Source: a virus (taxonomy: Duplodnaviria; Caudoviricetes). Taken from it: 64,000 bases of DNA. The position numbers and the translations under genes were made by a program. Below the pieces are notes generated by a model. That model was given only the letters and a program-made list of their open reading frames with translations, was not told the origin of the DNA and made no database searches. The stretch is from the IMG/VR virus record IMGVR_UViG_2595698832_000001, positions 118,834 through 182,833 of that record, one strand, 5' to 3'. Shown in pieces: positions 5,646-47,918 of the stretch (the stretch's first letter is position 1; every line of letters begins with the position of its first letter).

Positions 5646-6849
5646 TTATACTTTAGTGTTTACTAAGCCAACTAGTTCAGATTCTTTAGATTCTAAAGCT
5701 ATACCTATAAAATATTTTTCTTCTTTTTTGTCTTGGGTTTACACAAGCATAACCGTCATACTCAGCGTATAATTCATCACCGGCTTTTACAGAACCTTTA
5801 ACAATTACTGGTGTCTGACCCTTTAAAGCTATTAACACACCTTTACAATCTTTATTAAGAATAAATCCTGGTTTATCTGAAACTACACCTAAAGGTCTAT
5901 TATGTTTATAGATGTCGAAATATTCAATTTCTGAATTTTCATTAATACCTAGAACAGCTCCAACTTCAAACTCTTTATCGGTTTCGTAGACCTCAGCTAA
6001 GTCAGCGTATTTTGCTTTTAAAGCAGTTCCTATAAAATCTTGAGCATACATAGCTTTAAATTGTTGCGTTGTTGAGCCAATTGTAGATATTAAGTTTAAT
6101 CCTGGTAATAATCCGGCTTCTGTGGTTAACCAAGCTTCTTTTTTACTTTTACGAGTTTGTAATTGTTTAGATTTAGAATCAACAAATACATAATCCGTTA
6201 ACAAATCATCTATATTAGCAACACTTTGTTTCACTTCATCTATTAAAACGTCGACATATTTTTTAGTTGTTACGTGAGTAGGTTTAGATACTTCTAAATC
6301 TATTTTATTGTCTTGTTTAATATAGATGCCTGCGAGATAACCATCTAAGAAATCTTTAAATTGTTCTAAAGACCATTTAAGATACTTTAAGTTAATAACA
6401 TCGTAATCATCGACAATAGGCCAATCTTTATCATTGTCAGTTTTAGTAGGGTAATTATCTACATCTAACCAAGGATATAATTCATTTAAAGTGACTTTTT
6501 TCCACATATCAGAGTTAGCATCTGGATAATACCCTTGATTTTCGATATCACTAGGCAATGCTAAATAATATGAATTTTTAATGGTTTCCACATCTGGATT
6601 ATCTTCTGTTATATAAGAAACTATTTCACCTGCTTCATAAATTATGCTAGCATCCCATCTGATAGATTCTTTTGAAGTTAATATTTTAAATTGACCGATT
6701 AATTGATTAACCTCTCTTTTGAGTTTATTAACCGACTTGTTTAGTGCGTCTGCGCTAGCTCTTTGGTTATCCATAATATTGAATTCCTGAACGAACTCTC
6801 TAAAACTAGTTAAGTTAAAATTGTAGCCTTGGTATCTAAAATCAGACAT
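5646..6849 (-). CDS. Virion structural protein (fibre/baseplate-type) with a C-terminal ADLAE domain; frameshift near 5715-5730
   Basis: AKYADLAEVY...GVVSDKPG...IALKGQTPV...GIALE domain seen in T4-like virion proteins; late-type TAAATA upstream. Confidence 0.65.
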
Positions 6850-6912: not shown

Positions 6913-7275
6913 TTAATTAGTATTTAAGGTTATTGTATAAGTTTCAAAGCTTGAAGTTTCTACGCCTGTAAAATTATAATTAATACTTAATATAACCCTG
7001 TTGAATTCTGGTTGTGAATAAATGTCTACACTTTGAACTTTGATTCTAGGTTCGTAAACTTTTAGACATCTTGTAATTTCGGTTTGCATACTATTAATAG
7101 TAATATGGTCAATCATTTCAAACAAATAAGCATATAAATTGCAACCAAATTCTGGTTTACCAGCTAAGGAACCTTTTCTAGTAGTTAATATATTAAAAAT
7201 ACTTTGTTCTATAGCTCGTTTATCTATAACTACATCATTCAAAGAATCATTATGAAAATCTTTATAAGTTGCCAT
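6913..7275 (-). CDS. gp25: Baseplate wedge subunit (gp25-like)
   Basis: AIEQSIFNILTTRKGS...PEFGC...YEPRI signature. Confidence 0.92.
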   Translation of the reverse strand: MATYKDFHNDSLNDVVIDKRAIEQSIFNILTTRKGSLAGKPEFGCNLYAYLFEMIDHITINSMQTEITRCLKVYEPRIKVQSVDIYSQPEFNRVILSINYNFTGVETSSFETYTITLNTN

Positions 7276-28417: not shown

Positions 28418-28427
28418 TTTTACCTCC

Positions 28428-28857
28428 TTATTTTGAAATATTTGTAATAGCTTCTAAGATTTGTTCATAAGTAGAATCTAAATCTTCAGGTTTGGTTCTA
28501 ATATACATATATTCGGGTGCAAATGCAAAAGATTCGACATTATGTCTTAATACACTATGACTAAAACCAATTACCACTTTTGGGTAATTTGCGTAATCTT
28601 TTTTAATAAAGCTTACAAAATCTGTGTTAATATATATTAATCTATCAATACCACGAACTGCTATGTAATTTTTCTTTGAAGTATTTAGAATTTTGATAGT
28701 TTATATTACTATTATCTACATAATAATAACCACTCATTGCTCCTTTTTTATCTGTGAAAGTATAACACATATTGAAAACTTGTTTGTCTTTCAAAACATT
28801 AATATTACAAACTGCTGATAATTTAACAGTTGTATTTTCGTTAACTTGTATTAACAT
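28428..28857 (-). CDS. Hypothetical protein, frameshifted near 28670
   Basis: AAGGAG RBS; another frame stays open to 28428. Confidence 0.55.
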
Positions 28858-28957
28858 TGTATCTCCTTTTAAAATTAATTCTAAGTTTAAACCTAAAGTA
28901 CATATTTAACACTATAGCAGCAAGTTTAGATCTAAGTTTAAAATTAATCTAAGCCGT

Positions 28958-29052
28958 AAAAAAAGGTTTGAGCTACTAGGAAGCTCTTAGGTCTACAATA
29001 CCCTTATTGTATTTACCGTCACCGTGACTATCAATCCCCTTTTAAACAGCTA
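28958..29052 (-). ncRNA. Putative structured small RNA, copy 1
   Basis: Own TATAAT (29059-29064), three hairpins and a U7 tail; homologous to 47728-47815. Confidence 0.65.
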
Positions 29053-29166
29053 TGTAGAATTATAATATATTTGAACTTAATTCTTGCTGAAATTTTAGAA
29101 CTTTAGTTTAAAATTAAAATATAATATTTTATAATATTTTATAATATTTTATAGTAGTTTAGTTGG

Positions 29167-30585
29167 TTATATATTGTAAGTAAATCTTTTTATTTCATAA
29201 CCTTCAGGTTCATAAGATTTTGTTATTCTAGCATTTATTTGTTTCTTAAAAAAACCATTGTGATCAGCAATATCATATATATTAACAATATCTTTAGAAT
29301 CGTGAAGTCTTAATAATCTACCAATACTTTGAGTTATTGTGACATAACTTTTGAGTGGACTAGCAAGCACTAAATTATGTAAATTCTTAATATTTACTCC
29401 GGTTGAAGTTGTCGCATAATTAGCAACTACGATAGCATTGTTTACTGAATCTATTAATTGTCTAATAGTTTCCCTTTGTGAACCTTCTATCATTCCGTTA
29501 ATAAAAAATACATTATTTCTTTGTTGAAACGCCAAATCTTTATAAGTCTTTTTATCGTAGTTTAATCCTCTGGATTTCAAGAACTTATAAAATAAAGTTA
29601 GACCGTGTTCAGTATGAGAAAATAATACTAAAGTGTTACCTTTGCTGACTACAGTATCGCCTATTCTTTGAATTAAATTATTTCTTGGGTCGTATTCTTT
29701 TAATTGTTTCAATTGGCTTGAATATTCACCTTCAAAATTAAATTTATATTTAAGATCTATTATATTAATAATAGCATTTGTAGCCAGACCTCTATCTATT
29801 AAACCTCTGGGTGTAATATATGTTCTTGGTAAACCAAAAATACTTATTAATCTCATAGCATCTATTTCATTATCTGGAATAGTCCCTGTCAAACCTATCT
29901 TATACTTAGCATTAATACACTTATTGCAAATATCAAATATTTGATCTGCTTTGGCTGTATGTGCTTCATCTACAATAATAAAATCTAAATCATTTAAGGC
30001 TTCTTTAAAGTTTTTAACAGATTGCCAAGTACTAATTGTTAATGGTTTATCAAAAGATTTAATATTATTTTCACCACCTATTAATCTTGTTTCTATATCC
30101 AATTTATAATTTATTAAATCATTATTAAATTGATTTGTTAGTGAAATGTTAGGAACAAGTATCAAACCTTTTAATTTTTTTAATATTAGAATCTTAGCAA
30201 TTAATCCAATAATGACGCTTTTACCAGCACCTGTGGCTGCTCTAATGAATAACTTATGAAATTGCATAGCATCTTTTATAGCTTGTTTTTGATAATCATA
30301 AACTGGAAATGGTTCTAAATGTTTTATAATTATTTCCAATTGCGAATCTAATTTTTCATTAATTTCTGGTTTAGTTGTTATACCCAGGTATTCTAAAACA
30401 CCGTTTGGTACAATTTGTTGGTTGTTGAAATCTTTATAGAAGTATTCATAAGCTAATTTTGGATTCATTTGAGCCCATATATTATAACGAATATCTTTCT
30501 TAAATATTAATTTAGCTTTTTGGTCATCAGTTAAAGATATTAAACTAAATGATTCGTTTAATTTTTTAAAATTATTTTTTAACAT
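29167..30585 (-). CDS. uvsW: UvsW-like SF2 DNA helicase
   Basis: YQKQA, ATGAGKS, DEAH, GLTGT and QSIGRLLR. Confidence 0.92.
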   Translation of the reverse strand: MLKNNFKKLNESFSLISLTDDQKAKLIFKKDIRYNIWAQMNPKLAYEYFYKDFNNQQIVPNGVLEYLGITTKPEINEKLDSQLEIIIKHLEPFPVYDYQKQAIKDAMQFHKLFIRAATGAGKSVIIGLIAKILILKKLKGLILVPNISLTNQFNNDLINYKLDIETRLIGGENNIKSFDKPLTISTWQSVKNFKEALNDLDFIIVDEAHTAKADQIFDICNKCINAKYKIGLTGTIPDNEIDAMRLISIFGLPRTYITPRGLIDRGLATNAIINIIDLKYKFNFEGEYSSQLKQLKEYDPRNNLIQRIGDTVVSKGNTLVLFSHTEHGLTLFYKFLKSRGLNYDKKTYKDLAFQQRNNVFFINGMIEGSQRETIRQLIDSVNNAIVVANYATTSTGVNIKNLHNLVLASPLKSYVTITQSIGRLLRLHDSKDIVNIYDIADHNGFFKKQINARITKSYEPEGYEIKRFTYNI

Positions 30586-31271
30586 TTAGGTTTACCTTTA
30601 AAATCTGGACATAATCCTGCATAAGGACACCAAGGACATAATTTATTTGGTTTGCTATTCCAAGTATTAGATTCAATAGAATTTTCAATAGATTTTATTT
30701 GATTATTAAGATTATCTTGCCAATAAATTGCAGAATCTTGAGACAAACTTAAAGTATTTTCTAAAAGATGTTCAACATAAACATATCTTATTTTTATTTC
30801 ATTTAGTTTAAGTCTTTTAAATATATATAAACTATATAAAATTAATTGTGTAAAATCTTGATAAGATGGTTCTTTATATTTACCTGTTTTATAATCTATA
30901 AGCTCTAATCCATTTTCAGTCGTATTAATTCTATCAATATAGCCTACAAAAATAGCAGTATCTTTGCTACAAGGTTCATAATTAGAATCTAAGAATAATT
31001 CGTATTCCCTTAAAGATTTTCTGGATAGTATTTCTTTTCCTAATTCAGAATCAATAAATCTTAATGCAATATTTTGTATTTCTGGATCTTTTGAATTAAG
31101 AACTTCATTGTATTTTTCAGTGTTATGAAACTCAAGTATTTCGTGTATATCAGAACCTTTTTTTAATGCTGGGTTCTTTTGAGTTTCTGGAACCTTTTCA
31201 ATATATCTATAATAATATTGTTTTGGGCATTTTTTATATGTATCTATTTTCGAAAAACTATATCTTGTCAT
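30579..31271 (-). CDS. Cas4-like / RecB-family PD-(D/E)xK exonuclease with Fe-S Cys motif
   Basis: N-terminal CP, GYIDRI, DYKTG, QLILY and C-terminal CPWCPYAGLC. Confidence 0.85.
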   Translation of the reverse strand: MTRYSFSKIDTYKKCPKQYYYRYIEKVPETQKNPALKKGSDIHEILEFHNTEKYNEVLNSKDPEIQNIALRFIDSELGKEILSRKSLREYELFLDSNYEPCSKDTAIFVGYIDRINTTENGLELIDYKTGKYKEPSYQDFTQLILYSLYIFKRLKLNEIKIRYVYVEHLLENTLSLSQDSAIYWQDNLNNQIKSIENSIESNTWNSKPNKLCPWCPYAGLCPDFKGKPKC

Positions 31272-31957: not shown

Positions 31958-32115
31958 TACCAACTAAACCATTATAAAATATTATAAAGAACTATAAAAT
32001 TCTTTACATTTTTAATAGTTTTTCTTGCTTCATAGTTCTTCTCAGACTTTATCTGAGTTTTCTTAGAACTCCACAAGCTTTGATTTTTTAAAGTGGTTCC
32101 AGCTGTTGTATCCGT
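31958..32115 (-). ncRNA. Putative TnpB omegaRNA scaffold overlapping the tnpB 3' end
   Basis: GCTTGTGGAG...TGAAGCAAGAA motif typical of tnpB 3' ends, with hairpin CTCAGA-TAAAG-TCTGAG. Confidence 0.6.
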
Positions 32116-33289
32116 AGCCACTATTTTATTTAATCCAGTATTTAAAATATTGATACTAGCATTTAAATCTCTATCAATAGAAAACCCACATTCAGAACAA
32201 TGGTAGGTTCGTTCAGAAAGTTTTAAACTTTCTTTAATACATCCACAATTTGAACAAGTTTTAGATGATGGATAATAAGTATCAATCTTAATTAAACAGC
32301 CTTGGTTTTCGGCTACTTTATAACTTATTTTTTCAATAAAAGAACTCCAGCTAACATCAGATATTGCTTTTGAAAGCCTTTTGTTCTTAACCATATTCTT
32401 GACTTTTAAAGTCTCAAGACAAATAGTTCTATACTTATCGGCTATCTCTCTTGAAACTTTATGTTGATAGTCATTTCTTTGATTTTTAACTTTTTTATGT
32501 AAGCTTTGAAATTTTTAATCTTTGTTTTTCTCTATTATTAGAACCCTTTTGTTTTCTACTTAGACTTCTTTGAGAAATCTTAAGTTTTCTTAAAGATTTT
32601 TCAAGAAATCTTTTATTTTCGAATACAACCCCATCACTACAAATAGCAAAGTCTTTGATACCAAGGTCTATACCGACACTTTCTGATGTTTCTTTAGATT
32701 CTATATCTGTATAGAAGGTAAAAGAAATATAGTACTTATTGTCTTCTCTACTTATTGTAAATCCGGTAACTTTTTCAAACTCATACTTGATTTTATGTCT
32801 TTTGAATCTTATTCTAAGATCATCTTCTGCATAATCTGATGCTCGAGGTTTTCTTAAAATAATATAATCTCCTTCTATCTTTGCACCTTTATAACAGTTA
32901 AAACTCTGAGTACTTGATTTCTTAGCTTTGAATTTAGGATAATTAAGAGTTATATAAAAGTTATTAAATGCTCTACTAAGATTCCTCATTATAGCCTGAG
33001 CATAGTCAGCAGGAAATAAAGCTAGATAGCTATATTCTTCTTTTAGTCTCGGAAGTGAATTGTTTAGATCAATCTCTGTAGGAATTTTTGAAACTATATT
33101 ACCTTTATTCTTTCCGTTTTGAATTTCATAAGTTCCAAACTTGGAGTCTTTGATATTATAGAGTGAGATGTTATAAATGGCTCTAGATAATCCAAAGAAT
33201 GATTCAAGTATCTCTTTTTGTTTAGAATTTGGTTTTAATACAAATTTAGCACTTCTGATTGTGCTATAAATATTATCAGTTTTATTCAT
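31972..33289 (-). CDS. tnpB: TnpB RNA-guided endonuclease; one extra base near 32500
   Basis: N-terminal HTH, RuvC GIDLG / ICLETL / DRDLNA all intact, zinc finger CSNC...CSEC. Confidence 0.92.
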
Positions 33290-45231: not shown

Positions 45232-47037
45232 ATGCAATTTAAAAAAGTTGATGTTTTAATATCAGAAAATCTCACAAAAGAACAGTTAAAAGAAAAAGTT
45301 CTAACAGAACTTAATAAAATAAGCAAAGAATCAAATCCTAGTATTAGTTATATCGCTAATATTCACGATATAGTTAATGGTAAATATTGGATTTGTATGG
45401 ATTCTGAAACTAAAGAGACTATGGAAGCAGCAGACGAATTAATAGACCTTCAAGCAATTTTTAGACATACAACTGAAAATCCAGAAGAAGCTTCAAAAGA
45501 TTTATTATACAGTTCTAAATATATAGAAGATAATTTCCTTCGAAAAATAATTTTTGAAACTTATAAGGAAGCTAATGATTCTAGGCTTACCAAATTAGAA
45601 ACTACAGTAGGTACTAATGAAAAAGATATAGAAGATAAACATTATAAATTAGAAAGAAGAGTGACAACTGCTGAAAATACCATTGTCGACAATAAAGAAT
45701 TAGAAGATACTAGGTATAGTGAGTATACCCAATTTAAAAAAAATATAGAAAATAACATTCTTGGTATTAATAATAACTTAAATACAAAAGCAAATCTGGG
45801 TGGTTCTGAAACGCAAGTATTTAATGTTGCAGACCCAACAAGTGATTGGCACGCTATTAATTTAGCTTACGCCAAGAAGAATTTTAATGTAGATTTAATT
45901 AATGCGCACACTGCAGACTTTAATAACCCACATAAAACAAGTATTGCTAACTTAATTGATACAAGTATTGTTAACCCGACAAACAATCATATTTTACAAT
46001 ATGATTCAAATACTAAAAAAATGGAAAAATAGCAGTTCTAAGTGTAGATTTATCTAATTATTATAATAAATCTGAAGTAGATTCTAAATTAGATACTAAA
46101 GCCAACACAAGTAATGTTTATAATAAATCTGAAATTAATACTAAATTTAATTCATATTATAATAAATCTACTATAGATTCTTTTATGGAACTTAAAGCAA
46201 GTGCCGAATCTGTTTATGATAAATCTGAAATCGATACTAAATTGCAAGATGTGCTGACACAAGCTGATAATAGATACCCTACATTATTAACACAAAATTT
46301 AGAATGGACAGTAGGAAGTGGTGGTGATTATGAGGATTTACAAACTGCTATTAATGAGGCTAGTAAATATAAATCGATTTCTAATTATAAAATAAATATC
46401 GTTTTAAAATCTAGTTATATAATAAATTCAACTATCTTTTTTTATGGTGATTTAAGTTTTATAAATATAACTGCAGAAAGTAATTCTGAAATAACGGTTG
46501 ATTTATCAAATATGAGTTATTTTTATCCAAATGAAGGAGGAATGTTTATTTTAATTAATTGTAATAGCCCTATTTTTTAATATTAAATTAAATTTAACAG
46601 GAGCTGCTCCTAGTAACTTAACAACATCTAGTATTTTTCTCGTATTATATGGTTCAAGTTTTATTAGACCAATTATAACGATAACAGGAAATAATCAACC
46701 GGTTACTAGAATGTTTACAATAAGAGAAAAATCAAATTGTGTAACAGCAATTTTATCAATACAACAAAATAATATTTGTAATATTGGAATATATATATCT
46801 CAATGTTCTGATTGTGATTTGTTTACTGGAACAATTTTAAAGGGAAACACAAACTCTATCGATATATATGGATTAAGTAGATTAAATTTAGCTTTTGATG
46901 TTTCTAACTTTGAAGGAAGTGTATCAATTAATCAAGGTTCTTTGGTTACACAATTATCAGGACAGAATTTAAGTTCAAATATAGCAAAGAATACTTTAAC
47001 TAGTAATGGAATTTTTATGACAGGAGTAAGAGAATGA
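45232..47037 (+). CDS. Tail fibre / receptor-binding protein; frameshifts near 46015-46030 and 46575
   Basis: Coiled coil, NPH motif, YNKSE(I/V)D repeats and LEWTVGSGGDYEDLQTAINEA followed by a beta-helix-like C-terminus; chaperone-like gene follows. Confidence 0.75.
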
Positions 47038-47660
47038 AAATAGTATCAAAAAATGGAACAATTTATCAAAATTTAACAGTATCAATTATAAGAGACCACA
47101 TTTATAGTGTTAAACAACCTTTAACATTAATTAAAGATGATAGAAAGTTAAAATTTAATGATGATTTTAGTTTTGTCGACGATATTACGCCTGAAGAAAT
47201 TCAAGCAGGAACGCAAGCAGTTAAAGAATACTGTTTAGCTAATAATCTTATGGATTTATATTATGAATATGTGCTAAATACTGCAAGCGAATCTGAAAAA
47301 CTTAATATAATTAAAGAAAAGAAGAAGTTTGAAATACAAACAAAAAGGGACGCAGCTTTAGAATCTGGTTTTATATTCAAAGGCCATACATTCCAAACTA
47401 GGGAAAAGGATAAACTTAATATTAACGGAATGGCCGCTAATATATTGTTAGATATACAAAGTGGTACTAATTCAATGACTGAGATTACTTGGATTGACTT
47501 GAATGACGAAAAGGTTAATTTCACACCTCAAGAATTTTTAACATTTGTTTCAAAAGTAACCGAATATACTCAGGAAGTAATATTTAAAGCGAATACATTA
47601 AAAGAAAAAATTAATTCATCTGAAACTGTTAAATCTGTCGATAAAATTAAATGGGAATAA
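47034..47660 (+). CDS. Tail fibre assembly chaperone-like protein (DUF4376-like)
   Basis: EIQTKRD...FQT...ITWIDLND...LKEKI...IKW pattern; ATGA-coupled to the fibre gene. Confidence 0.72.
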   Translation: MKIVSKNGTIYQNLTVSIIRDHIYSVKQPLTLIKDDRKLKFNDDFSFVDDITPEEIQAGTQAVKEYCLANNLMDLYYEYVLNTASESEKLNIIKEKKKFEIQTKRDAALESGFIFKGHTFQTREKDKLNINGMAANILLDIQSGTNSMTEITWIDLNDEKVNFTPQEFLTFVSKVTEYTQEVIFKANTLKEKINSSETVKSVDKIKWE

Positions 47661-47727
47661 TTAAGTTTATTAGTAAATGTGGGTCATATAAAGCTATATG
47701 GCTCTCATTATGTTTATGTCTATTTAT

Positions 47728-47815
47728 AAGGTTTTTGAGCTACAAGGAAGCTCTTAGGTCTGTAATACCACAACGATCATATTTACCGTTACCTTAACTA
47801 TCAATTCCCTTAAAC
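47728..47815 (-). ncRNA. Putative structured small RNA, copy 2, just 3' of tRNA-Thr
   Basis: Homologous to 28965-29047 with a compensatory change in the first hairpin. Confidence 0.62.
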
Positions 47816-47842
47816 GTAGATTAATTCCCACATAAAGGACAA

Positions 47843-47918
47843 TGGAGCCTAATGAGAGACTCGAACTCTCAACCTTTCGCTTACAAGGCGAATGCTCTAC
47901 CAGTTGAGCTAATCAGGC
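47843..47918 (-). tRNA. tRNA-Thr(TGT)
   Basis: Full cloverleaf GCCTGAT...TTCGC-CTTGTAA-GCGAA...GTTCGAGT...CCA. Confidence 0.97.

What the first reader, a model, noticed from the sequence alone, without database searches (positions are those of the whole stretch)
28958..29064. Structured ~85 nt non-coding element present twice (28965-29047 and 47728-47815) with a compensatory base change
Seen: on the minus strand both copies read GTTTAA..GGG.ATTGATAG-[hairpin]-GGTAAATA-[variable]-AGACCTAAGAGCTTCCT.GTAGCTCAAA..CCTT. Hairpin 1 covaries (GTCA-cgg-TGAC versus GTTA-agg-TAAC). The GAGCT/AGCTC stem is unchanged while its loop varies. Copy 1 has its own TATAAT box and a U7 tail; copy 2 lies 28 nt downstream of tRNA-Thr. 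Inference: this is a phage small-RNA family under structural selection that I cannot assign. The ACGGUAAAUA junction loosely recalls pistol ribozymes, but the expected 6-nt pseudoknot is not evident.
Basis: partly seen in the sequence, partly recalled or inferred. Interest (0 to 1): 0.85.

Follow-up and report, generated by a model that had tools for sequence, protein, structure and literature searches.

The report
New structured small RNA, Campylobacter phages
Both copies are real genes for a roughly 100-base folded RNA found only in the large T4-like phages of Campylobacter; it matches no catalogued RNA family and its job is still unknown, though in one phage genus it sits directly behind a Ro60-like RNA-binding protein gene.

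Summary
The window is a Firehammervirus (F379-like Campylobacter phage). It carries two minus-strand copies, about 28953-29053 and 47720-47818. Fifteen distinct variants from Firehammervirus and Fletchervirus fold as one four-helix junction: closing helix P1 plus three hairpins. 97.6% of cells pair, against 36-52% in slid controls, and 7 pairs changed on both sides. These come from only about three lineages, so covariation is modest.

The joining strands and hairpin P4 are invariant. In a 6-kb comparison the element is the only DNA that blastn detects between the two genera. Rfam gives no family even at E <= 10, so the pistol, tRNA and YrlA leads fail.

In RNA libraries holding NCTC12673 sequence, 3 of 4 runs assemble the element as separate short contigs. 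Their word depth is 13-68 times that of the overlapping neighbours, which fits a discrete abundant RNA.

In Fletchervirus the element starts 10 nt after a gene whose model has a Ro60 fold. The window's genus lacks that gene. Copy 1 alone pairs over 17 bases with a Campylobacter-type CRISPR repeat variant.

Best reading: a new trans-acting, protein-binding small RNA, Y-RNA-like in Fletchervirus. Function is unproven. Another first-stage note on this genome described the same stretch.

The parts
28953..29053 (-). Copy 1 of the small RNA. The 5' end is predicted about 5 nt upstream of P1. The 3' end follows the T7 run.
   Evidence: Sequence; alignment A2; covariance model hit at 108.3 bits. The end positions are inferred from the TATAAT box and by analogy with the NCTC12673 contigs.
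29059..29064 (-). TATAAT box placed to start transcription about 5 nt before P1 of copy 1.
   Evidence: Read directly. It is conserved in all Firehammervirus copy-1 flanks printed. Promoter activity was not tested.
29038..29048 (-). P1 5' strand of copy 1. It pairs with 28956-28966.
   Evidence: 5 of the 9 P1 pairs show changes on both sides.
29029..29037 (-). Joining strand J1/2 (GGATTGATA). It is invariant except for one G/A position.
29018..29028 (-). Hairpin P2. Three pairs are conserved and the loop is 3-5 nt.
   Evidence: at the third pair, C-G in 8 variants and U-A in 7.
28990..29017 (-). Arm P3. It has a GGT/ACC base, an internal loop, and a variable hairpin of 5-7 pairs with a variable loop.
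   Evidence: The sequence differs between lineages and the hairpin is kept.
28970..28986 (-). Hairpin P4: GAGCT, a 7-nt loop TCCTNGY, then AGCTC. The stem is invariant.
   Evidence: One search also flags it as terminator-like in copy 1.
28956..28966 (-). P1 3' strand of copy 1, including the T7 run at 28958-28964.
47720..47818 (-). Copy 2 of the small RNA. It is the last unit of the tRNA-Pro / ORF / tRNA-Thr transcription unit and faces a convergent + strand ORF (47034-47660).
   Evidence: model hit at 95.5 bits. It is present in only 2 of the 13 full-length Firehammervirus-type records (F379, CJLB-13), plus this genome.
47843..47918 (-). tRNA-Thr (TGT), 28 nt upstream of copy 2.
29167..30585 (-). 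uvsW helicase gene, upstream neighbour of copy 1. It is context only, not part of the RNA.
30579..31271 (-). Cas4-like PD-(D/E)XK nuclease gene, two genes upstream of copy 1. It is context for the CRISPR reading.
   Evidence: PDDEXK_1 at 3.4e-26 and Cas_Cas4 at 1.9e-07.

Best explanation
The element is a stand-alone gene for a stable structured non-coding RNA of about 95-105 nt. It belongs to a new family restricted, as far as I searched, to the T4-like Campylobacter phages (Firehammervirus and Fletchervirus).

The RNA folds as a four-helix junction. A closing helix is formed by its two ends, followed by a short hairpin, a long variable arm and an invariant 5-bp hairpin with a 7-nt loop. About 35 invariant bases lie in the joining strands and in hairpin P4.

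I think it most likely acts in trans as a protein-binding RNA. On this reading the variable helices only hold the fold, and the invariant junction and P4 form the surface that is recognised. In Fletchervirus the likely partner is the Ro60-like protein encoded 10 nt upstream, so the RNA would be a non-canonical Y RNA. In the window's Firehammervirus, which has no such protein, the RNA is made from its own promoter (copy 1) and probably from the tRNA operon (copy 2). There it must serve another phage or host partner.

What is shown: the two copies, the conservation, the fold supported by base changes, presence in RNA libraries as separate short contigs, and the Ro60 fold of the neighbouring Fletchervirus protein model. 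What is inferred: the exact ends, promoter use, trans action, and any binding.

The confidence of 0.4 is for the protein-binding / Y-RNA-like mechanism. That this is a real structured RNA gene I put at about 0.85-0.9.
For: Distribution and conservation:
- blastn with copy 1 hits 51 of 50,697 phage records, all Campylobacter phages. 13 are full length and 38 cover only the 77-nt core.
- In a 6-kb query the core is the only stretch that matches Fletchervirus records.

Fold:
- RNAalifold on 15 distinct variants gives four helices. 25 pairs are predicted, and 7 have changes on both sides.
- 97.6% of cells pair, against 36-52% when partners are slid. The slid versions show changes on both sides in 1-3 pairs.
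- The MFE fold of copy 1 alone gives the same junction.

Expression:
- Four RNA runs from one study and one sample hold the NCTC12673 locus.
- X2 assembles a separate 93-nt contig (L008:2452-2544) at word depth 9279. Its overlapping neighbours are at 474 and 137.
- X4 has 60- and 80-nt contigs at 6613 and 6154, against 154 and 211 for the neighbours.
- X3 bins reach 19683, against 465-676 for the flanks.

Independence of the module: the element has three different contexts. The downstream genes of the two genera are unrelated (E = 0.34 and 0.028).

Partner in Fletchervirus:
- The element starts 10 nt after a 460-aa gene carrying DUF2828, DUF7788 and vWA, assigned to phrog_850 'RNA-binding protein'.
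- The AlphaFold model of that protein (pLDDT 79.7) has Ro60/TROVE structures as all of its 12 listed best hits, over its full length. E runs from 4.6e-07 to 5.4e-05 and TM from 0.37 to 0.58.
- Relatives of this protein in other phages sit among RNA genes. Sub-threshold YrlA matches lie next to them in LeBron (39.8 bits), L192 (42.0 bits) and L184 (34.0 bits).
- Chen et al. 2014 (PMC4201824, passages read) used 'within 4 kb of Ro60, same strand' as the criterion for Y RNAs.
Against: - The Ro60-like gene is absent from 3 of 3 Firehammervirus genomes searched, the window's own included. tblastn at E <= 10, three Pfam models and the PHROG model all find nothing. TROVE is absent from 25 of 25 genomes of the host-type genus, and phrog_850 is present in only 1 of 25. 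So the RNA persists, and is even duplicated, without that protein.
- In Fletchervirus a different 158-nt RNA lies beside the short paralogue of the same protein. It has no counterpart in the window's genome, so it tracks the protein better than this element does.
- The element has neither the YrlA T-loop sequence nor the GNCGAA(N)G motif. YrlA does not match it at E <= 10.
- Adjacency may only reflect a general clustering of RNA genes: 33 of 77 DUF2828 loci have tRNAs within 2.5 kb.
- The base-change evidence rests on about three lineages.
- The MFE folds of the single sequences are not better than shuffles (z = -1.44 to +0.35).
- Contigs cannot show strand, ends or level. In run X1 the element is not set apart: one 480-nt contig at depth 1391 covers it and its flanks. 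All four runs come from one sample.
Confidence: 0.4

Rival explanations
1. tRNA-island stable RNA. The element would be a tRNA-sized junction RNA that is co-transcribed and processed with phage tRNAs, like T4 RNAC and RNAD. It would act on, or be recognised by, the tRNA or translation machinery, for example as a decoy for tRNA-directed host enzymes, and would not depend on Ro60.
For: - Copy 2 lies 28 nt after tRNA-Thr, at the end of a tRNA unit.
- The Fletchervirus copy lies about 1.6 kb downstream of the tRNA cluster on the same strand.
- The overall cloverleaf-like order is a closing helix, a short hairpin, a long arm, then a 5-bp stem with a 7-nt loop.
- This reading explains why the RNA persists in Firehammervirus without the Ro60-like gene.
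- T4 RNAC and RNAD come from the tRNA region and have no known role (PMC3014915, passage read).
Against: - There is no tRNA call by ARAGORN and no Rfam tRNA match at E <= 10.
- The junction strand lengths (9, 0, 3 and 3-5 nt) are unlike those of tRNA.
- Position 5 of the P4 loop varies (A, U or C), so a T-loop is not conserved.
- No anticodon-like loop is conserved.
- The contig boundary in NCTC12673 lies about 5 nt before P1, not at the helix end as RNase P would leave it.
- Copy 1 has its own promoter-like box, away from any tRNA.
Confidence: 0.22
2. CRISPR repeat binder (tracrRNA anti-repeat mimic). The 5' part of copy 1 would pair with the repeat-derived part of host type II-C crRNAs. It would then disturb or redirect host Cas9 function, perhaps together with the phage Cas4-like nuclease.
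For: - Copy 1 pairs over 17 consecutive bases (5 of them G-U) with the 36-nt repeat of an unnamed Campylobacter-type genome: 5 of 5 repeats in L117, and 1 of 4 repeats in L134.
- In 375 kb of host-like sequence, runs of 17 or more occur 11 times, 5 of which should be the L117 repeats themselves. This gives roughly 6e-4 for a 36-nt target.
- The 17 bases are identical in all 10 Firehammervirus copy-1 variants.
- A Cas4-like gene lies two genes upstream.
- Campylobacter phages with Cas4 have been linked to acquisition of host-derived spacers (PMC4804229, passages read).
Against: - The pairing is not conserved in the family. Fletchervirus copies pair over only 10-11 bases, which chance gives about 0.12 of the time. 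Copy 2 pairs over 9-10.
- The commoner repeat variant in L123, and 3 of 4 repeats in L134, cut the run to 10.
- The paired bases are the 5' strand of P1. Their changes between lineages are compensated inside the RNA, which argues that P1, not the repeat, is what is selected.
- Part of the run is an A/T tract.
- There is no similarity to four tracrRNAs beyond 12 nt (local alignment p = 0.05-0.98). No Rfam tracrRNA match was found at E <= 10.
- The idea was formed after seeing the sequence.
Confidence: 0.1
3. Self-cleaving ribozyme or RNA-processing signal. It would free itself, or the neighbouring tRNA or mRNA, from longer transcripts.
For: - A compact junction with many invariant unpaired bases is typical of ribozyme cores.
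- In Fletchervirus the element follows a coding gene by 10 nt, and in copy 2 it follows a tRNA by 28 nt, so some processing is needed to give a discrete RNA.
Against: - There is no match to any Rfam ribozyme family at E <= 10.
- RNA contigs run through the whole element without a break, so most molecules are not cut inside it.
- Copy 1 has a promoter-like box placed where the RNA should start, so no cleavage would be needed there.
Confidence: 0.06
4. DNA-level or cis-acting element. It would be a promoter (TTGATA-17-TACAAT lies inside it), a replication-origin feature near uvsW/uvsY, or a leader or terminator for neighbouring genes.
For: - A sigma-70-like pair of hexamers lies inside both copies (10 of 12 matches).
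- P4 plus the T run is flagged as terminator-like in copy 1.
- The element lies within a few kb of uvsW in both genera.
Against: - Promoter-like hits are no more frequent than in shuffles: 8 found against 6.1 +/- 2.1, and 7 against 7.2 +/- 2.4.
- Base changes keep RNA helices.
- The high-depth RNA contigs cover the whole element, including the part upstream of the internal hexamers.
- Copy 2 has no downstream gene on its strand.
- The downstream genes differ in each context.
- The T run is missing in Fletchervirus and in copy 2.
Confidence: 0.05

Closest known systems
YrlA, the bacterial and phage Y RNAs (Rfam RF02553), partners of Ro60/Rsr
   Same: - About 100 nt, with a closing helix formed by the two ends plus three hairpins. 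The YrlA consensus is printed.
- In Fletchervirus the element is encoded on the same strand right beside a Ro60-fold protein gene. This matches the criterion of Chen et al. 2014 (PMC4201824, passages read).
- Both lie in a region rich in tRNA genes.
   Different: - No covariance-model match at E <= 10.
- No TTCGA-type T-loop, no D-arm sequence and no GNCGAA(N)G motif.
- The neighbouring protein is DUF2828, not a Pfam TROVE member.
- The window's own phage has the RNA but no Ro60-like gene.
Phage T4 RNAC and RNAD, the small stable RNAs of the tRNA region
   Same: - Small stable RNAs of a T4-like phage with no known function, linked to the tRNA region (PMC3014915, passage read).
- Copy 2 lies in the tRNA unit.
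   Different: - No sequence comparison with T4 was made here.
- Copy 1 and the Fletchervirus copy lie outside the tRNA cluster.
- Sizes and folds of the T4 RNAs are recalled only, not checked.
The 158-nt non-coding RNA of phage NCTC12673 (Sacher et al. 2018, PMC6024767)
   Same: - An unannotated, densely transcribed RNA of a Fletchervirus (passage read).
- It lies beside the short paralogue of the same Ro60-like protein.
   Different: - It is a different locus: nt 7110-7267, against about 84,170-84,250 in that record.
- There is no sequence similarity. blastn with copy 2 finds a single significant place in two other Fletchervirus genomes, PC14 and CP81.
- It has no counterpart in the window's genome.
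tracrRNA of type II-C CRISPR-Cas9, and RNA anti-CRISPRs (the latter recalled, not from a call)
   Same: Copy 1 carries 17 bases that can pair with the 5' half of a Campylobacter-type repeat, as an anti-repeat does.
   Different: - It is not encoded at a CRISPR locus.
- It has no tracrRNA-like 3' part and no similarity beyond 12 nt.
- The pairing is not kept in copy 2 or in Fletchervirus.
Pistol self-cleaving ribozyme
   Same: A short hairpin followed by an A-rich strand.
   Different: - No Rfam match at E <= 10.
- The architecture is a four-way junction.
- No 6-bp pseudoknot was seen.
- No internal break appears in the RNA contigs.

Membership tests
YrlA / Y RNA (RF02553) | Match to the family covariance model at or above the gathering score (69 bits) | tested here: not met
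   No YrlA match on either copy at the gathering score or at E <= 10. As a positive control, sub-threshold YrlA matches were found beside DUF2828 genes of other phages.
YrlA / Y RNA (RF02553) | Encoded within 4 kb of a Ro60 orthologue on the same strand (criterion of Chen et al. 2014) | tested here: inconclusive
   Met in Fletchervirus: 10 nt after a gene whose model has the Ro60 fold. Not met in the window's genome or in 2 other Firehammervirus genomes, which have no such gene.
YrlA / Y RNA (RF02553) | tRNA-like domain with a T-arm (TTCGA-type loop) and a D-arm, and a GNCGAA(N)G motif near the 5' end | tested here: not met
   The P4 loop reads TCCTNGY and its fifth base varies. No GNCGAA motif occurs in alignment A2.
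YrlA / Y RNA (RF02553) | Bound by the Ro60 protein | not testable with these tools
   This needs immunoprecipitation or a gel shift. The complex predictor handles protein-protein pairs only and was not used.
tRNA | Recognised by ARAGORN or by Rfam RF00005, with canonical junction lengths | tested here: not met
   Only tRNA-Thr and tRNA-Pro are called in the window. No tRNA match on the element at E <= 10.
Pistol ribozyme | Match to the Rfam model, a 6-bp pseudoknot between the P1 loop and the P2-P3 linker, and self-cleavage | tested here: not met
   No match at E <= 10. The hairpin loop is 3-5 nt and variable. Contigs are unbroken across the element. Cleavage itself was not assayed.
tracrRNA (type II CRISPR) | Anti-repeat able to pair with the cognate CRISPR repeat | tested here: inconclusive
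   Copy 1 pairs over 17 consecutive bases with one repeat variant (L117, and 1 of 4 repeats in L134). The run is 10 with the other variant, 9-10 for copy 2 and 10-11 for Fletchervirus.
tracrRNA (type II CRISPR) | Encoded at a cas9/CRISPR locus and related in sequence or structure to tracrRNAs | tested here: not met
   The element is phage-borne. Local alignment to four tracrRNAs found in L112, L117, L123 and L134 is no better than shuffles (p = 0.05-0.98).
T4 RNAC/RNAD-type stable RNAs | Small stable RNA transcribed and processed from the phage tRNA region | tested here: inconclusive
   Copy 2 lies 28 nt after tRNA-Thr, but its transcription was not examined. Copy 1 lies elsewhere. No comparison with T4 sequences was made.

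The most novel reading that the evidence does not exclude
Copy 1 is a phage-made RNA that pairs with the repeat part of host type II-C crRNAs, acting as a tracrRNA anti-repeat mimic. It would work with the nearby phage Cas4-like nuclease to blunt or redirect Campylobacter Cas9 immunity. This would be an RNA-based counter-defence built onto a structured scaffold RNA that the phage family already had.
Probability: 0.08. Interest if true: 0.9.

Novelty: new variant of a known kind. Interest (0 to 1): 0.6.

Why it matters
Campylobacter phages of these two genera are the ones developed for biocontrol in poultry, and their RNA biology is almost unknown. This element is a conserved, apparently abundant, structured RNA that no annotation or RNA catalogue lists.

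If it is the partner of the Fletchervirus Ro60-like protein, the Ro60/Y-RNA pairing would extend to the large DUF2828 branch. That branch has relatives in 709 phage records, and this would be a Y RNA without the tRNA-like hallmarks.

If instead it works without Ro60, as it must in the window's genus, it joins the unexplained class of tRNA-sized junction RNAs of large phages. The T4 RNAC and RNAD RNAs are the oldest examples of that class. This element would be a tractable case, because cultured phages, a cultured host and existing RNA libraries are all available.

Tried and rejected
- Rfam at the gathering score on the whole window, and at E <= 10 on both copies. Only the two tRNAs and chance-level hits appeared (DUF2815 at E = 8.5, outside the element; RUF3; HOTTIP).
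- The pistol, hammerhead, twister-sister, hatchet and HDV-like readings. None matched at E <= 10. I also tried by eye to fit an HDV-like fold and failed, because the 5'-most strand pairs with the 3' end.
- tRNA: rejected.
- Wider homologues. An exact-pattern scan of IMG/VR found 7 loci, all known Campylobacter phages. Scans of metagenomes (40 loci) and GTDB genomes (28 loci) gave hits that all lack the P4 hairpin and look like chance.
- Covariance model R1. It found nothing in 77 DUF2828 loci and nothing in 4 phage genomes carrying the Ro60-like gene. In 25 host-type genomes it gave one 30.6-bit hit. That hit lies antisense across the junction of two long coding genes and lacks P1 and the conserved motifs, so I rejected it.
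- A third copy or scattered copies of the motifs in the genome: none.
- Conserved synteny of downstream genes between the genera: none.
- Homology of the element to tracrRNAs: none.
- Sequence search of the Ro60-like protein against PDB. The single sequence found nothing. The profile found only weak TROVE/Ro60 hits at E = 0.43-0.63. The fold search settled the question.
- The ESM Atlas returned only DUF2828 clusters.
- The 26 'non-tRNA T-arm' loci came from a crude pattern. Of the 10 I checked with Rfam, most were tRNAs missed by ARAGORN, tmRNAs or an intron, and only 2 were YrlA-like. The count of 26 therefore must not be read as 26 Y RNAs.
- Two error-rich records (PV052264, PV052266; fragmented genes) were left out of the alignment. 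One of them would have added broken pairs in P4.
- Run X1 shows no separate contig for the element.
- Literature. One search (Campylobacter phage, RNA-seq, non-coding RNA) and passages of PMC6024767 and PMC4804229 describe no RNA at this locus. One search (DUF2828) gave 5 papers, none of which by its title or abstract start concerns phage RNA. Searches gave background only. Supplements are closed. Figure S2 and Table S2 of PMC6024767, and Table S2 of PMC4201824 (its list of 22 phages), could bear on whether this RNA or these phages were noted.
Full report
WHAT IS THERE

The window belongs to a 182,833-bp Campylobacter phage genome of the Firehammervirus (CP220-like) type. Its nearest record is phage F379, 98.7% identical over 6 kb.

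They align at 81% mean column identity.
- the two versions of the first hairpin;
- the unchanged GAGCT/AGCTC stem with a variable loop;
- the TATAAT box and the seven-T tail of copy 1;
- the 28-nt distance of copy 2 from tRNA-Thr.

The unit is somewhat longer than described. An outer helix joins the bases on either side, giving about 28953-29053 and 47720-47818.

DISTRIBUTION

blastn with copy 1 against 50,697 phage records hits 51, all Campylobacter phages. Thirteen are Firehammervirus-type records with the full element. Thirty-eight are Fletchervirus-type (CP81-like) records that share only the 77-nt core, at about 82% identity.

With a 6-kb query around copy 1, that core is the only piece that still matches Fletchervirus DNA. 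So it is far more conserved than the surrounding genes.

Copy 2 is found in only 2 of the 13 Firehammervirus-type records (F379 and CJLB-13), besides the window's genome. CP220 and CPt10 have a single copy.

I found no relatives outside these phages:
- An exact-pattern scan of IMG/VR gave only known Campylobacter phages.
- Scans of metagenomes and of one genome per prokaryote species gave only chance-looking hits without the last hairpin.
- A covariance model built from the family finds just the two copies in the window's genome.
- The model finds nothing in 77 other phage loci.
- In 25 genomes of the host-type genus it finds nothing credible. The one 30.6-bit hit lies antisense inside coding genes.

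FOLD

Fifteen distinct variants were aligned. Two error-rich assemblies were left out. RNAalifold gives a four-helix junction:
- a closing helix P1 formed by the two ends, 6-11 pairs;
- a nine-base joining strand;
- a short hairpin P2;
- a long arm P3, with an invariant GGU/ACC base and a variable hairpin;
- a three-base link;
- hairpin P4, with five invariant pairs and a seven-base loop;
- an A-rich link back to P1.

Seven of 25 pairs changed on both sides while staying paired, five of them in P1. 97.6% of cells pair, against 36-52% when the partners are slid by 1-3 columns. The slid versions show changes on both sides in 1-3 pairs.

The limits are plain. The 15 variants represent about three lineages: Firehammervirus copy 1, copy 2, and Fletchervirus. 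The single-sequence folds are no more stable than shuffles.

What stands out is the contrast. P1 and P3 have been rewritten between lineages, yet 59 columns of the 102-column alignment, including the joining strands and all of P4, are invariant. That pattern fits a fold whose junction and P4 are recognised by something. It does not fit a mere stable hairpin.

KNOWN FAMILIES

Rfam 15 gives nothing for either copy, either at the gathering score or at E <= 10. That excludes membership of the pistol family and the other catalogued ribozymes. It also excludes tRNA, YrlA, tracrRNA and the riboswitches, as far as covariance models can see. ARAGORN calls only the two true tRNAs.

EXPRESSION

Four RNA-seq runs of one study and one sample hold the NCTC12673 version of the locus. 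I laid their contigs on 1.6 kb around the element.
- In X2 the element is a separate 93-nt contig (L008:2452-2544) with mean word depth 9279. The overlapping neighbours have 474 and 137.
- In X4 two contigs of 60 and 80 nt (2438-2547) have 6613 and 6154, against 154 and 211.
- In X3 the bins over the element reach 19,683, against 465-676 beside it.
- In X1 one 480-nt contig of depth 1391 covers the element and its flanks, so nothing is set apart there.

Contigs cannot give strand, ends or level, and all runs are from one sample. Still, separate short contigs bounded within a few bases of P1, at 13-68 times the depth of their neighbours, are what a discrete, abundant RNA of about 95-110 nt would produce. 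DNA carry-over would not produce them.

The contigs run unbroken through the element, so it is not cut internally. The upstream boundary lies 3-6 nt after the stop codon of the preceding gene, about 5 nt before P1. In the window's copy 1 the TATAAT box sits where a start about 5 nt before P1 is expected. That agreement is an inference, not a mapped start.

A published transcriptome of NCTC12673 reports a different RNA as the most densely transcribed feature: 158 nt at 7110-7267 (PMC6024767, passages read). Our locus is at about 84,170-84,250 of that record. It is not mentioned in the passages I read. The supplements are closed.

CONTEXT

The element has three different neighbourhoods.
- In Firehammervirus, copy 1 follows uvsW, which follows a Cas4-like nuclease gene. 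It precedes two small genes of unknown function.
- Copy 2 closes a tRNA-Pro / ORF / tRNA-Thr unit and faces a convergent gene.
- In Fletchervirus the single copy lies 10 nt after a 460-aa gene and before an unrelated gene.

The downstream genes of the two genera show no similarity. The element therefore behaves as an independent module, not as a leader of a particular gene.

THE RO60 LINK

The 460-aa Fletchervirus protein carries DUF2828, DUF7788 and a vWA signature, and belongs to phrog_850, 'RNA-binding protein'. I modelled it with an alignment of 26 sequences (pLDDT 79.7).

All of the 12 listed best matches in the PDB are Ro60/TROVE structures: Thermus phage phiLo, frog and human Ro60, and Deinococcus Rsr. 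They match over the full length, with E from 4.6e-07 to 5.4e-05 and TM from 0.37 to 0.58. So it is a Ro60-fold protein.

Relatives occur in 709 phage records and are annotated 'Ro-like RNA binding protein' in mycobacteriophages. They sit among RNA genes:
- directly before the tRNA cluster in FelixO1;
- near tRNAs and a ROOL-like RNA in a Listeria phage;
- in 33 of 77 IMG/VR loci, tRNAs lie within 2.5 kb.

Sub-threshold YrlA (Y RNA) matches lie beside the gene in LeBron (39.8 bits, E = 1.1e-05 in the five-locus scan), L192 (42.0 bits) and L184 (34.0 bits). Chen et al. 2014 identified Y RNAs by exactly this rule, within 4 kb of Ro60 on the same strand (PMC4201824).

The YrlA consensus is also a closing helix plus three hairpins. 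In Fletchervirus the element therefore sits where a Y RNA would sit and has a similar overall shape.

AGAINST THE RO60 LINK

- The Ro60-like gene is absent from 3 of 3 Firehammervirus genomes searched, including the window's own. It is present twice in 2 of 2 Fletchervirus genomes.
- The host-type genus has no TROVE gene in 25 of 25 genomes. It has phrog_850 in 1 of 25.
- So the window's phage keeps the RNA, and its lineage has duplicated it, without that protein.
- The 158-nt RNA lies beside the short paralogue of the protein and has no counterpart in the window's genome. It follows the protein's distribution better.
- The element has none of the sequence hallmarks of YrlA.

I therefore hold the Y-RNA reading as the best concrete mechanism for Fletchervirus only. 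For the family as a whole I hold the more general reading: a trans-acting, protein-binding scaffold RNA.

THE CRISPR LINK

Another first-stage note on this genome (e1-6232133) proposed that the 5' end of copy 1 pairs with the host CRISPR repeat. I had the same recollection and tested it with real loci.

I fetched cas9 loci from unnamed Campylobacterales genomes and read their repeats and tracrRNAs.
- Copy 1 pairs over 17 consecutive bases (5 G-U) with the repeat of L117 (5 of 5 repeats) and with 1 of 4 repeats of L134.
- The other repeat variant (L123, and 3 of 4 repeats in L134) cuts the run to 10.
- Runs of 17 or more occur 11 times in 375 kb of host-like sequence, 5 of which should be the L117 repeats themselves. 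This gives roughly 6e-4 for a 36-nt target.
- Fletchervirus copies reach only 10-11 (about 0.12 by chance) and copy 2 reaches 9-10.
- The paired bases are the 5' strand of P1, and their changes are compensated within the RNA.
- The element is not similar to the tracrRNAs beyond 12 bases.

This is an interesting property of copy 1. I rate it at about one in ten as a function, and it is my most novel reading.

OTHER READINGS

A sigma-70-like hexamer pair lies inside both copies. Such hits are no more frequent than in shuffles, and the RNA contigs include the part upstream of the hexamers.

A ribozyme is not excluded by computation. It has no family match, and no internal cut is seen.

VERDICT

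The element is a real, conserved, probably abundant structured RNA gene. It is new to the catalogues and confined to Campylobacter T4-like phages. Its mechanism is open. The leading idea is a protein-binding RNA, Y-RNA-like where a Ro60-fold protein is encoded next to it. The same stretch was noted independently by another first-stage reading of this genome (e1-6232129). Earlier follow-ups of this scan have reported other unassigned four-way-junction RNAs in unrelated phages. I did not check those.

Noticed in passing
L109:1111-1268 (NCTC12673 nt 7110-7267): The published 158-nt non-coding RNA of NCTC12673 lies directly beside gene 12. Gene 12 is a short paralogue (N-terminal half) of the Ro60-fold protein. 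The RNA has no Rfam match at E <= 1 and no counterpart in the window's genome. It may be the true Y-RNA-like partner in Fletchervirus.
   Followed up: partly
L136:3535-3643 (mycobacteriophage LeBron); L192:2331-2395; L184:4385-4460: Sub-threshold YrlA matches (34-42 bits, gathering score 69) lie next to DUF2828 'Ro-like' genes. This suggests that the DUF2828 branch of Ro60-fold proteins also has Y-RNA partners that Rfam's threshold misses.
   Followed up: partly
L137:464-1015 (Listeria phage AG20): A ROOL RNA match just under the gathering score (90.1 against 99.1 bits, E = 3.2e-17). It lies between tRNA genes, upstream of the DUF2828 gene.
   Followed up: no
window 31972-32394 (-): An ORF with the C-terminal zinc-ribbon/RuvC part of a TnpB-like protein, about 3 kb from copy 1. 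CP220 carries an annotated ISCaje4 TnpB in this region. Another first-stage note (e1-6232134) treats it.
   Followed up: no
window 28418-28857 (-): The gene after copy 1 is 70 aa here but 142 aa in CP220. PHROG 34988 matches only its first 64 residues. It looks truncated or frameshifted in this genome.
   Followed up: no
L008:3158-3265: A second stretch of raised word depth in the RNA contigs (up to 4650 in X3 and 2401 in X2). It lies inside the coding region of the Ro60-like gene.
   Followed up: no
window 47720-47818 compared with Fletchervirus copies: Copy 2 shares the U-A state of the covarying pairs in P1 and P2 with Fletchervirus rather than with copy 1 of its own genome. Its blastn identity to Fletchervirus copies (about 83%) is as high as to copy 1 orthologues (80-82%). 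It may have come in by exchange rather than by local duplication.
   Followed up: no
G217:C20:126983-128461: One of 25 genomes of the host-type genus encodes a full-length phrog_850 (Ro60-fold) protein, perhaps in a prophage.
   Followed up: no
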